In this document: piece by piece, positions 15,001-18,000 of the stretch
Position numbering within the stretch: the first letter of the stretch is position 1
Layout of the letters: each line of letters opens with the position of its first letter
IMG/VR virus record: IMGVR_UViG_2541047712_000002
Origin: a virus
Lineage: Duplodnaviria > Heunggongvirae > Uroviricota > Caudoviricetes
Length of the DNA: 64,000 bases
Direction: 5' to 3' (one strand)
Program-made: the position numbers

Positions 15001-18000
15001 GTGTAACCGCTCAGGTTGTGGCATCTAACCTCCAGCGTGCCGCTCGAAAGGTTGGTGCAACGGTAATGGTGGCGACGACTCACGAAGACCTGAAGAACGC
15101 GCTGCGCCCGGATATGCAGATCACCAAGCACTACAAAGAACGCGTGAAGGTGGAATATCACAATGGTAGTCATGATGAGGTTCATTTATGACGGACATCA
15201 TCATTAAACGCTACCGCCCTGAAGAGTTTCCGCGTCATCTGGACTTTCTGGAGCGAATGACTGTCACAAAGGGAACTGTAGAGGACTGGTACGCTCTTAA
15301 GTCGCTTCACTACAAAACAGACGGCAAACCTTTCGCGCCAACTTACTATCGCTGCGAACTTGATGACCGTCTGGTGGGCGTCGTGGTTATGGCTTACCCG
15401 AAACTACTGCTGGCACCTCGCCACCGCATGTTTCCTAAGTTGAAACCAACCACTAATACCACCGTGGCTAACCAGTACTGGGGTCGGTACGTGAATAACA
15501 ACTTTGCGGTGATCAGTCGCTCAGTTGTGGATACTCAGTATCGTGGCGTAGGCGTCTCTTATCGAATGATTAACCTGGTTAGCAGGATGCATGACCGGCC
15601 AATCATTGAGATCCAGTCCTCGATGAGCAAATACAATCCCTTCGCCATGAAAGCAGGGTTTAAGTTCATCCGCCCTGAGCGACCGAAGAGCTATGAAAGT
15701 GCACTGCGTGTGTTCCAGCGCCATTTCCGCTCCGACCCGGGTGATAACGAGGCGATCGTCAAAGAGTTGTTCGCTATGAGCGAGTCTCGTCGTCGCCGTG
15801 CGCTGCGCGATTTGGTGGCGGACTACCATAAGAACAGTTCCCTGGCAAAAGCTGGGCGGAATCGTGGCACGACGATTCAGGACATTGCCGACAGTCTGGT
15901 GGACGAGGCCAGCATTGTGAAGCTGCTCAAGGACATTCACAACCTGAGCTTTACGTCTCCGTTGTATGGTGTGTACCGAAACCCTGACTTTGGCCGTCGA
16001 CTGCCTGACACGCTGCCACTGCTGGCATTCGACAAACAACCTTTGGATAAACCGTTAGAAATTGCTTTACCGGCATAAGGATTTGCCATGACGTTAACCG
16101 ACAAACAAAAGGACATCATCAAAACGCTCAATCTCGGTTATGAGCGAGGTCATCTACTTGATCTGGACGAATTGCTTGAAGTTTTGCCGTACAAGACAAC
16201 AAAGCAAAGTATCCAGTTCTCAATTCGCGCTCTGATAAAAAAGGGGCTGGTGGAGAAAGGGCATACGCGCCAACGCAGTGACAATCGCTATCACCGCCGG
16301 ACTCTTGGGTTAACCACTTTAGGTCGAGCCAAAGCGAAGTTACTGGTGATGTAATCGGTCTGGGAGCTTATTTAAAGACCTGCATCTGTATATATAAATA
16401 ATAAGTAACTTATTAAATATATACGGAAGCAGGCTTCGTAAGACATGCCAGACCTAATTAAACACCCCAGAAAACAAGTTGGTTAGCAGATGCAGTAAAC
16501 AAGTTGTTTTAGAGCGCATGGACGCGCTCTGTGTGTTTTAGAGGGATCTATGACGGTCGAAAAAGACGAGGTAAAAACTCGCTTGACACCAGCGGAGTGG
16601 GCCGAAGCTGAAGCCAAATGGACGTCAGGCGAATATACACTCTCAAAGCTGGAGGAAGAGTACGGCATTCGTCGTGAAACACTCTCCAGACATTTCAAAA
16701 AGCGAGGATTAGAGAAAGGCGCGGACTCTGTTGGGAAGATGGTTCGTGAGTCTCTTAAATCTGACGCAGAGCTTCGCGCTAAAGCCCGTGCGGAAAAGAT
16801 AGAAGAACGTCGTACACGTTATGACGGCTGGGCGTATGCGTTGGGGCAGATGGTGATGGTCGAAGTCACTACGGCCAAACGTGAGGGTAAGCCTTTAGGG
16901 GCGATTGAGGATTCTCTCAAGAGCTTACAGAGAGCCAGTAATACCCTTGCAAAATGCTTTGAAGTTTCGTCCAAAGCATTGGGCATGGATCATGCGGAAA
17001 ATGACGAGGAAGAAATTCCGAACCTGGTATTTGGTGAGCTTACGCCTTCCCAGGTGGCGAAATTACGTCAGGAAGACGACGAGCCTGAAATCATCGATGA
17101 CGAATTGCTTGAGACGTTGGAAGAAGAAGCTCTAAGCGAATTTGATGCGACAGATGATGGAAGTGAAGAGGAGGACGAATAATGGCAATCCCGTCCTCGC
17201 TCAGTCTTGTGCAACTGCATTCTGGACAGATGAAAGTCTTCCAGTCTCCGCATCGATTTAAAGTTGTTTGTGCTGGTCGACGCTGGGGAAAATCCCGGTT
17301 GTCGATCTCCACTATTATTCGTGCGGCGGCAAAGGAAAAAAAGCAAAGGGTCTGGTATGTCGCTCCTACTTACCAGATGGCTCGCCAGATTTTGTGGGAC
17401 GATCTACAGGAAGTTCTGCCTCGTAAGTGGGTTAGGAAAAAGAACGACACCACGATGACAATCGTGTTGAAGAACGGTTCGGAGATCGCCCTCAAAGGTG
17501 CTGATAAGCCTGACACTCTGCGCGGCGTAGCGTTGCATTTTGTAGTGCTTGATGAATTTCAGGATATGAAGGCTGACACCTGGTACAAGGTGTTACGACC
17601 TACTCTTTCATCGACACGCGGCGGTGCACTGATCATTGGTACGCCAAAAGGCTTCTCGGAATTTCACAAACTGTGGACTATAGGCCAGAACGTAGAGCTG
17701 CAAAGAAAGGGACAGTGGAAGAGCTGGCAGTTTGTAACTGCCGATTCTCCGTTTGTACCTACGGCGGAAATTGAAGCTGCTAAGAACGATATGGACCCCA
17801 AATCGTTCGCTCAGGAGTACCTGGCCAGCTTTGAGAACATGTCCGGGCGCGTTTACTACCCGTTTGATCGTAACGTGCATGTAAAACCGCTTCAGTTCAA
17901 CCCTCGGTTGCCTATATGGGTAGGGCAGGACTTCAACATTGACCCGATGTCTTCCGTAATTTTGCAACCTCAGCCAAATGGTGAGCTATGGGCAATTGAT

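What the first reader, a model, noticed from the sequence alone, without database searches (positions are those of the whole stretch)
16386..16433. Near-identical ~48-bp AT-rich palindromic repeat at two loci 30.6 kb apart (16386-16433 and 47042-47089)
Both copies follow a gene end and precede a class A palindrome plus the first gene of a module (small terminase at 16550; replication module gene at 47198). They differ only in TA-repeat number. Together they bracket the packaging-structural-lysis-partition block. Could be strong bidirectional terminators, factor-binding sites or recombination sequences that define a module boundary.
Basis: seen in the sequence. Interest (0 to 1): 0.5.

Follow-up and report, generated by a model that had tools for sequence, protein, structure and literature searches.

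The report
Conserved hairpin terminator cassette, three copies
The two near-identical AT-rich palindromes are two of three fixed copies of a conserved hairpin found in SSU5-type phage-plasmids; it most likely stops transcription at operon boundaries, and one copy also marks the edge of a swappable cargo-gene slot.

Summary
A 33-nt stretch is identical at 16391-16423 and 47045-47077 (none expected by chance). The full unit is a 55-nt hairpin, 16379-16433 and 47035-47089: arms CCTG..TC.G / CGGAAGCAGG around an AT-rich imperfect palindrome.

The window is an E. coli SSU5-like phage-plasmid. Related genomes carry three copies at fixed intergenic sites. Site A lies before terS, site B before the replication module, and site C (outside this window) after a Dam-like methylase gene. 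In 5,426 complete E. coli genomes, 848 of 850 copies are on plasmids, with a median of three per genome.

Copy B behaves as a one-directional intrinsic terminator. It has a conserved T-tract, and its + strand RNA folds better in 31 of 31 variants. Published RNA-seq of the near-identical phage-plasmid Cyrano shows a roughly 60-200-fold drop in expression across it.

Copy A has no T-tract, yet its sequence is far more conserved than a plain terminator needs. A second, sequence-specific role is therefore not excluded.

Only the left flank of B is hypervariable (11 unrelated cargo classes). The block between A and B is not exchanged as a unit. Interest is moderate to low.

The parts
16379..16433 (+). 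Copy A of the hairpin: left arm CCTGCATCTG, AT-rich imperfect palindrome centred on 16407, right arm CGGAAGCAGG. No T-tract follows.
   Evidence: The RNA fold of 16350-16462 (+) is -44.2 kcal/mol, z = -8.0. The element is present upstream of terS in 78 of 80 TerS-selected loci, and the other 2 lack upstream DNA.
16357..16364 (+). Outer inverted repeat, left half (GGTCTGGG). It starts 3 nt after the stop codon of the 88-aa ORF.
16448..16454 (+). Outer inverted repeat, right half (CCAGACC). It pairs with 16357-16364 in the extended fold.
47035..47089 (+). Copy B of the hairpin: left arm CCTGTTTCTG (two U.G wobbles on the + strand), the same 33-nt core, right arm CGGAAGCAGG.
   Evidence: The + strand fold is -26.1 kcal/mol with z = -6.2; the - strand fold is -20.7 with z = -1.65.
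47090..47099 (+). T-tract TCTTTTAAAA directly after the copy B stem.
   Evidence: TCTTTT-type tails occur in 27 of 31 unique site B variants, with a mean of 5.5 T in 8 nt.
47108..47114 (+). CCAGAAC, remnant of the right outer repeat at copy B. The left outer repeat is missing here and is replaced by cargo DNA.
45850..47026 (+). Two cargo ORFs of unknown function (253 aa and 140 aa) filling the variable slot that ends at copy B.
   Evidence: There is no megablast homology to relatives left of ~47022-47045. PHROGs families are of unknown function. Left flanks of site B fall into 11 classes.
16510..16541 (+). Context: GC-rich hairpin plus T run, between copy A and the terS ribosome-binding site. 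It supplies the T-tract terminator that copy A lacks.
   Evidence: It is conserved in SSU5.

Best explanation
The element is a lineage-specific, thrice-repeated hairpin cassette. On the + (coding) strand transcript it acts as a transcription stop and insulator at three operon boundaries of enterobacterial SSU5-type phage-plasmids.

The 10-12-bp GC-containing lower stem (CCUGCUUCYG / CGGAAGCAGG plus a covarying flanking dinucleotide), extended by an AU-rich upper stem, forms as RNA polymerase leaves the upstream unit.

At sites B and C the stem is followed by a U-tract and works as an ordinary Rho-independent terminator. At B this keeps the partition/toxin-antitoxin/cargo operon, which is expressed in lysogeny, from reading into the lytic replication genes.

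At A there is no U-tract. There the hairpin is inferred to act as a pause site or a 3'-end-protecting structure. The GC-rich terminator 80 nt downstream does the stopping in front of terS.

Because the cassette is a conserved island in otherwise diverged or unrelated DNA, it also serves as a crossover point. Copies are occasionally converted to one another, which explains the near-identity of A and B in this window. Different cargo modules end up joined at B.

Shown: the anatomy, the copy number, the fixed positions, the strand asymmetry at B, the expression step at B, and the flank variability.
Inferred: that termination happens at the hairpin itself, the role of A, and the recombination mechanism.
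For: (1) Three fixed sites. nhmmer finds exactly A, B and C in SSU5 and Cyrano. All 120 IMG/VR matches map to these sites. In complete E. coli genomes the median is 3 per genome, with 848 of 850 copies on plasmids.

(2) All neighbouring genes in the window are on the + strand, and the hairpins start 25 and 9 nt after stop codons.

(3) Site B: the + strand RNA fold is better in 31 of 31 unique variants, and T-rich tails occur only on the + strand. The divergent variants L064 and L091 keep the arms and the U-tract although their cores are barely palindromic.

(4) Site C: T-tracts (CTTTTT / CTGTTTTG) in about 24 of 26 variants.

(5) RNA-seq of E. coli LF82 carrying Cyrano (PMC9928086, S1 table). 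CYRAN_28-30, which end 23 nt before site B, read 50-89 units (log2 8.6-10.4 in other conditions). CYRAN_31, just after B, reads 6.2 (log2 2.6-4.2).

(6) Pairing is maintained. The dinucleotides flanking the arms covary (GA/TC, AG/CT, AA/TT). Cores of different sequence remain more self-complementary than shuffles (median z = -3.2). Total length varies from 51 to 57 nt through TA slippage, which a hairpin tolerates.

(7) Cyrano has an ordinary terminator at 76313-76357 built on the same stem, AGCCTGCTT / AAGCAGGCT + TTTCTTTT.

(8) The distant Aeromonas relative has a conventional GC-rich terminator at the position equivalent to A.

(9) Conversion and recombination. In one genome A = B over 55/55 nt, and in another A and C differ by only 3 nt. 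Cyrano, ~99% identical to the window around A, has a different B core. Identity to SSU5 switches at the element in several B and C loci.
Against: - Copy A has no T-tract on either strand and no strand bias: the + strand is better in 12 variants and the - strand in 12. Klebsiella A arms carry two uncompensated mismatches.
- Site C folds better on the - strand in 17 of 26 variants.
- The primary sequence is conserved beyond what pairing needs. At site A, nucleotide diversity is 0.036-0.108 in the arms and 0.074 in the AT core. It is 0.25-0.39 in the adjacent linkers and 0.236 at terS third codon positions.
- The outer repeat GGTCTGGG / CCCAGACC is conserved in sequence rather than by covariation.
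- The expression drop at B is per-gene data from a close relative, not a mapped 3' end, and it could in part reflect RNA processing.
- The simple terminator scan did not flag either copy. Its rules (loop 3-8, at least 5 T in 8) do not fit this long mismatched stem.
- In the commonest E. coli context of B, the adjacent cargo gene is on the opposite strand.
Confidence: 0.5

Rival explanations
1. The palindrome is chiefly a sequence-specific protein-binding site on DNA, as a duplex or an extruded cruciform. The binder would be a phage-plasmid regulator or partition-type protein that acts at three dispersed sites. Terminator activity would be a second function of the same palindrome.
For: - Strong conservation of primary sequence at site A, including the AT core.
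- The outer repeats GGTCTGGG / CCCAGACC are conserved in sequence. CCCAGAC clusters around the elements: 5 of 11 genome-wide copies in Cyrano.
- Two ParB_N genes lie upstream of A and a ParA gene upstream of B.
- Dispersed ParB-bound palindromes are known in phage-plasmid N15 and plasmid RK2 (from memory).
- A terminator palindrome that doubles as a LexA site has been reported (bioRxiv 10.64898/2026.08.19.745784).
Against: - The conserved arms are separated by an AT spacer of variable length, 31-37 bp. This changes the helical phasing of the half-sites.
- The central palindrome, the part that resembles a classical operator or parS, is the part that varies between sites.
- The Acinetobacter relative keeps the ParB_N, ParA, TerS and DnaB homologues but has no analogous multi-copy palindrome.
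- No binding data exist.
Confidence: 0.2
2. Copy A is part of the packaging recognition or cleavage site (pac or cos) next to terS, and B and C are paralogous copies.
For: - A lies 117 nt upstream of terS, the usual place for cos or pac in siphoviruses (established knowledge).
- The SSU5 GenBank record, made from virion DNA, is linear and begins and ends inside the A palindrome. Cyrano is linearised at the same point.
- A is the most conserved of the three copies.
Against: - Three similar sites 31-47 kb apart would give sub-genomic cuts.
- TerL is of the Terminase_6N/6C type, which I associate with headful rather than cos packaging (from memory).
- The record break may be an assembly artefact at a hairpin or repeat, and Cyrano was probably re-oriented to match SSU5. 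Other phage records start elsewhere.
Confidence: 0.08
3. The element's primary role is as a dedicated recombination sequence that defines module boundaries. It would be a site for a specific recombinase, or a hairpin/cruciform cut to start recombination.
For: - The left flank of B has 11 unrelated classes, all joined within ~0-30 nt of the arm.
- Identity switches at the element in some B and C loci.
- Two variants have a flipped core.
- These genomes encode SbcCD-like, RuvC-like and RecA/UvsX-like proteins according to the Cyrano annotation.
- The arms resemble loxP arms (CTTC-GTATA against CTTCCGTATA; from memory).
Against: - A and C lie in fully conserved synteny.
- At A the identity switch lies 250-300 nt away, inside terS.
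- These genomes are mosaic everywhere, so a few coincident junctions carry little weight.
- The spacer is 31-37 bp, against 6-8 bp for tyrosine-recombinase core sites.
- Three directly oriented sites would delete the genome.
- The integrase is not conserved: it is present in Cyrano and not annotated in SSU5.
Confidence: 0.08
4. The AT-rich palindrome flanked by GC clamps is a DNA-unwinding or origin element for lytic, possibly T4-like recombination- or R-loop-primed, replication.
For: - The architecture is an AT-rich core between conserved inverted arms, with repeated CCAGAC-type motifs nearby.
- B lies directly upstream of the DnaB-like helicase/primase module.
- UvsW/UvsY/gp32-like genes are annotated in Cyrano.
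Against: - GC skew shows no inflection at A, B or C.
- The Acinetobacter relative has the same replication genes but no such element.
- There is no direct evidence of any kind.
Confidence: 0.05

Closest known systems
Rho-independent (intrinsic) transcription terminators
   Same: A GC-containing stem is followed directly by a U-tract at B (and at C in relatives). It lies between co-directional transcription units, and expression steps down across B.
   Different: The stem is unusually long (about 25-27 bp) and has an AU-rich upper half. The same sequence is kept at three sites and across genera. Copy A has no U-tract.
T4-type PeSL cassettes (promoter-early stem-loop) and lambdoid 'boundary' sequences, described as mediating modular shuffling (from memory)
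   Same: A short conserved regulatory stem-loop sits at the edge of a hypervariable gene slot and offers homology for crossovers between diverged genomes.
   Different: No sigma-70 promoter consensus was detected within or next to the element. There are only three copies, and only one borders variable DNA.
Repeated extragenic palindromes of enterobacteria (REP/BIME, ERIC) (from memory)
   Same: Imperfect palindromes of 55-100 nt in intergenic DNA, transcribed as hairpins that can end or stabilise mRNAs.
   Different: The element is not dispersed in host chromosomes: 848 of 850 E. coli copies are on SSU5-type plasmids. Its positions are fixed, and there is no sign of mobility.
Dual-function terminator palindromes that are also transcription-factor sites (yobI terminator / LexA; bioRxiv 10.64898/2026.08.19.745784)
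   Same: A terminator-encoding palindrome lies just upstream of the next unit's control region, and its sequence is conserved beyond what structure needs.
   Different: No binding factor is known here. The element is not a LexA box: CTGT is present but the ACAG half is missing at the required spacing.
Dispersed centromere/operator palindromes of phage-plasmid N15 (SopB sites) and RK2 (KorB sites) (from memory)
   Same: A few copies of one palindrome are scattered over a plasmid-prophage near lytic operons, and ParB-family genes are present.
   Different: Those sites are short perfect 13-16-bp palindromes. Here the conserved parts are 10-bp arms separated by a variable AT spacer, and binding is untested.

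Membership tests
Intrinsic terminator | Stable stem-loop with G+C-rich base on the transcribed strand | tested here: met
   Both copies fold as long hairpins, z = -8.0 and -6.2. The lower stem has 10 pairs, with 6-7 G-C or G.U.
Intrinsic terminator | U-rich tract immediately 3' of the stem | tested here: inconclusive
   Met at copy B (TCTTTT; 27 of 31 variants) and at site C. Not met at copy A: 3.1 T in 8 nt, the same as on the opposite strand.
Intrinsic terminator | Transcripts end at the site | tested here: inconclusive
   Per-gene RNA-seq in Cyrano drops roughly 60-200-fold across site B (PMC9928086 S1 table). No 3' ends were mapped. Data for A and C are uninformative because the flanking genes are at background.
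Bidirectional terminator | T-tract and stable fold on both strands | tested here: not met
   Minus-strand tails are not T-rich (3.0-3.7 T in 8). The - strand fold of B has z = -1.65.
Mobile repeated palindromes (MITE / REP / ERIC type) | Many copies at variable positions, including the host chromosome | tested here: not met
   Three fixed positions. In E. coli, 848 of 850 copies are on plasmids, with a median of 3 per genome.
parS / ParB operator | Short conserved palindrome of fixed geometry bound by a ParB-family protein | tested here: inconclusive
   The geometry is atypical: arms 31-37 bp apart and a variable centre. ParB_N genes are present. Binding cannot be tested with these tools.
Tyrosine-recombinase core site (lox / dif type) | Two ~11-13-bp inverted arms around a 6-8-bp spacer, with a conserved cognate recombinase | tested here: not met
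   The spacer is 31-37 bp. An integrase is annotated in Cyrano but not in SSU5.
cos / pac site | A single site next to terS where virion DNA ends map | tested here: inconclusive
   Copy A is next to terS and the SSU5 record breaks inside it. There are, however, three copies, and TerL is of Terminase_6N type. Virion read termini are not available here.
T4-type PeSL cassette | A consensus early promoter coupled to the stem-loop, flanking variable ORFs | tested here: not met
   No promoter-like site on the + strand at or beside either copy. Variable ORFs occur only to the left of B.
Any Rfam RNA family | Covariance-model match at gathering score | tested here: not met
   At gathering score only two tRNAs match in the window. 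At E <= 1 the region 16300-16600 gives only a chance miRNA hit.
RNase III processing site (T7 R-site type) | About 20 bp or more of double-stranded RNA that is cleaved by RNase III | not testable with these tools
   The stem length (25-27 bp with a small internal loop) is compatible. Cleavage needs an experiment.

The most novel reading that the evidence does not exclude
The three palindromes are sequence-specific cis sites, read as duplex or cruciform DNA or as RNA hairpins, and recognised by a phage-plasmid factor. That factor would coordinate the lysogeny-to-lysis switch at three operon boundaries, or use them to start packaging or recombination-dependent replication. Termination at B and C would be only a by-product. 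The 3-6-fold excess of sequence conservation at the T-tract-less copy A would then be the signature of that recognition.
Probability: 0.2. Interest if true: 0.7.

Novelty: new variant of a known kind. Interest (0 to 1): 0.35.

Why it matters
SSU5-type phage-plasmids (pHCM2, pLF82/Cyrano, many Klebsiella, Salmonella and Shigella plasmids) are common in clinical Enterobacteriaceae and carry resistance and other cargo genes.

A conserved stop signal at the right edge of the cargo slot would explain how newly acquired genes can be expressed from the constitutively active partition operon without switching on lytic replication genes. It also gives a precise landmark (CCTG..TC.G...CGGAAGCAGG + TCTTTT) for locating cargo in new assemblies.

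The three 55-nt near-identical hairpins are also likely trouble spots for sequencing and assembly; two GenBank records are broken inside one of them.

If the excess sequence conservation at copy A reflects a bound factor, the element would be a handle on the still unknown control of late genes or packaging in this group.

Tried and rejected
- T4-late-promoter idea. TATAAATA sits in the left half of the core, but 7 of 20 site A variants lack it. Two variants carry it only on the opposite strand, and several carry it on both strands. Rejected.
- LexA box idea. CTGTATATAT is present, but the ACAG half is missing at N8 spacing. Rejected by inspection.
- Small ORF or ribosome-binding site in the right arm. 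A 13-codon ORF follows copy A in E. coli, but there is no ATG at that place in SSU5. Rejected.
- CCAGAMC 'iterons'. The motif is enriched in the window (34 against 10.9 expected), but most copies lie in coding DNA. Not used as evidence.
- GC-skew search for origins: monotonic and uninformative.
- TerS-based search of genome contigs gave only 4 close loci, so no distant covariation set was obtained.
- A strict hairpin finder of my own missed the elements because of their internal loops. It was useful only for finding the Cyrano 76.3-kb terminator.
- Search for an analogous multi-copy palindrome in the Acinetobacter relative: none found.
- Single-copy E. coli plasmids (H128, H129) were checked as possible A x B deletion products. 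They are ordinary site B contexts.
- Literature searches for a prior description found nothing on this element.
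Full report
**What is there.**
They share an identical 33-nt core, 16391-16423 = 47045-47077. A 28-nt core search with up to three mismatches finds only these two places, against none in 100 shuffles.

The unit is longer than reported. It begins with CCTGCATCTG at 16379 and CCTGTTTCTG at 47035, and these pair with the right arm CGGAAGCAGG. The result is a 55-nt hairpin: a 10-bp GC-containing lower stem and an AT-rich upper stem with a small internal loop. Copy 1 is further enclosed by GGTCTGGG (16357-16364) and CCAGACC (16448-16454). As RNA, 16350-16462 folds at -44.2 kcal/mol (z = -8.0) and the copy 2 region at -26.1 (z = -6.2). The opposite strands fold less well, and for copy 2 barely better than shuffles (z = -1.65).

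**Where the window comes from, and how many copies there are.**
The window is an E. coli SSU5-type phage-plasmid. It is 99% identical to CMS-2020a and Cyrano (pLF82), and about 80% identical to Salmonella phage SSU5 and to Klebsiella relatives.

A profile of the element finds exactly three copies in both SSU5 and Cyrano:
- Site A lies between an 88-aa gene and terS.
- Site B lies just upstream of the gene that precedes the DnaB-like helicase.
- Site C lies downstream of a Dam-like methyltransferase gene, about 78 kb along, outside this window.

All 120 pattern matches in IMG/VR fall at A, B or C of SSU5-like genomes. In loci chosen through the TerS protein rather than through the element, 78 of 80 carry it upstream of terS, and the other two lack upstream DNA. 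Among 5,426 complete E. coli genomes, 260 carry it, with a median of three places per genome and 848 of 850 places on plasmids. It matches no Rfam family, and I found no description of it in the searchable literature.

**The three sites are not alike.**
- Site B has a T-rich tail (TCTTTT...) in 27 of 31 unique variants. Its + strand RNA is more stable than the - strand in 31 of 31, because of U.G wobbles. Even divergent variants with barely palindromic cores keep the arms and the T-tract.
- Site C also has a T-tract but no strand bias.
- Site A has no T-tract on either strand and no strand bias, and in Klebsiella its arms carry two uncompensated mismatches. About 80 nt downstream of A, just before the terS ribosome-binding site, there is a separate GC-rich hairpin with a T run (16510-16541). 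This is conserved in SSU5.

**Expression evidence.**
The LF82 study (PMC9928086) gives per-gene RNA-seq values for Cyrano. The parA gene and the two genes after it (CYRAN_28-30) end 23 nt before site B. They read 50-89 units in overnight culture and log2 8.6-10.4 in other conditions. CYRAN_31, which starts 111 nt after the hairpin, reads 6.2 units and log2 2.6-4.2. This is a drop of roughly 60-200-fold across an interval whose only hairpin-plus-T-tract is the element. It is per-gene data in a relative, not a mapped 3' end. The genes flanking A and C are at background, so nothing can be said for those sites.

**Hairpin or binding site?**
Several observations point to a structure in which the two arms pair:
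- The dinucleotides just outside the arms covary (GA/TC, AG/CT, AA/TT).
- Cores of different sequence stay more self-complementary than shuffles (median z = -3.2).
- Total length drifts between 51 and 57 nt through TA slippage. A hairpin tolerates this, but a protein bridging two half-sites would not.
- Cyrano has an ordinary terminator built on the same stem, AGCCTGCTT / AAGCAGGCT + TTTCTTTT.
- The Aeromonas relative has a conventional terminator at the position of site A.
- The Acinetobacter relative keeps the ParB_N, ParA, TerS and DnaB homologues but has no comparable multi-copy palindrome.

Against a purely structural role, the primary sequence is unusually well kept. Among 66 unique TerS-selected site A regions, nucleotide diversity is 0.108 and 0.036 in the arms and 0.074 in the AT core. 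It is 0.25 and 0.39 in the adjoining linkers and 0.236 at terS third codon positions. The outer repeat is likewise conserved as sequence. A terminator palindrome that is also a transcription-factor site has a precedent, so a dual role cannot be dismissed.

**Module boundary.**
Megablast homology between the window and its relatives starts at about 47022-47045, at the left edge of copy B. When 400-nt flanks are clustered, the left flank of B falls into 11 unrelated classes among 37 loci. The right flank of B and both flanks of A and C each form a single class. B is therefore the fixed right-hand edge of a cargo slot downstream of parA; here that slot holds two ORFs of unknown function, 45850-47026.

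The 30.6-kb block between A and B is not exchanged as a unit. Identity to SSU5 switches at the element in some B and C loci, but at A the switch lies 250-300 nt away, inside terS. These genomes are mosaic throughout, so this evidence is only suggestive.

**Why the two copies in this window are nearly identical.**
Copies are occasionally converted to one another. In one genome A and B are identical over 55 nt, and in another A and C differ by only 3 nt. Cyrano, about 99% identical to the window around A, has a quite different, flipped B core. The mean within-genome A-B distance is 6.1 edits, against 6.5 between genomes.

**Conclusion.**
The best-supported reading is a conserved hairpin cassette that punctuates transcription at three operon boundaries.
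- B is a one-directional intrinsic terminator that insulates the lytic replication genes from the partition/cargo operon expressed in lysogeny.
- C is probably a terminator too.
- A is a hairpin without a T-tract, whose role (pause, 3'-end protection, or a bound site) is inferred, not shown.
- Recombination at the conserved island is a likely side effect.

I put this at about 0.5. The main rival is a sequence-specific protein site with termination as a second function, at about 0.2. Packaging-site, dedicated recombination-site and origin readings are each below 0.1. The finding is a family-specific variant of a known kind of element, of moderate to low general interest. Within phage-plasmid biology it is useful as a landmark for the cargo slot and as an open question about copy A.

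Noticed in passing
window 1225, 1276, 4082, 4566, 5469, 6233, 16472, 16497, 44732, 47959 (13-nt sites): A family of AAACAANTTGTTT palindromes: 12 sites against 0.6 expected. Most lie 20-45 nt upstream of + strand start codons (terS, parA, the dnaB-like gene and others). They look like operators or 5'-UTR hairpins of a common regulator.
   Followed up: partly
window 4970, 13145-13162, 19943, 25438, 50610, 54132: A second palindrome class, TAAGT-N(1-8)-ACTTA: 9 sites against 0.83 expected. One abuts the start of the first ParB_N gene (13163). The core of the studied element (TAAGTAACTTA) is a short-spacer version of the same motif.
   Followed up: partly
window 16510-16541: A GC-rich hairpin (GAGCGCATGGACGCGCTC) plus a T run lies directly before the terS ribosome-binding site, and it is conserved in SSU5. 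A terminator or attenuator placed in front of the late operon suggests that late genes may be controlled by antitermination.
   Followed up: partly
window 7338-7371, 7609-7642, 7879-7912: Three copies of a terminator-like hairpin, AAAGCGCCCATAGTGGGCGCT with a T-rich tail, spaced 270 nt apart within a 109-nt direct repeat. This looks like a tandem array of small gene cassettes, each with its own terminator.
   Followed up: no
window 54510-54631 and 55515-55592: Two 20-nt inverted repeats, 95% complementary (CACAACGTTGAGG... and CACAGCGTTGAGC...), flank the two tRNA genes at 54898-55061.
   Followed up: no
L003 8262-8300 + L001 1-18 (SSU5 NC_018843 ends); L006/L004 (Cyrano OV696614 ends): Both public phage records are linearised inside the site A palindrome, 9-10 nt to the right of its centre. 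This is either an assembly break at a hairpin or repeat, or a hint of physical DNA ends.
   Followed up: partly
L005 26313-26357 (Cyrano 76313-76357): An ordinary terminator whose stem AGCCTGCTT / AAGCAGGCT equals the arms of the element but lacks the AT-rich core. SSU5 has an unrelated hairpin at the same position.
   Followed up: partly
PMC9928086 S1 table, CYRAN_122 vs CYRAN_123: The 88-aa gene just upstream of site A reads higher than the gene before it (log2 5.5-6.6 against 2.9-3.7 in two conditions). This could mean it has its own promoter, or that a 3' fragment is protected by hairpin A.
   Followed up: no
window 13163-16354: The operon upstream of site A encodes two ParB_N-domain proteins, two ABC-type ATPase-like proteins and an 88-aa protein of unknown function. 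It is far from the ParA gene (44780) and may not be a partition module at all.
   Followed up: no
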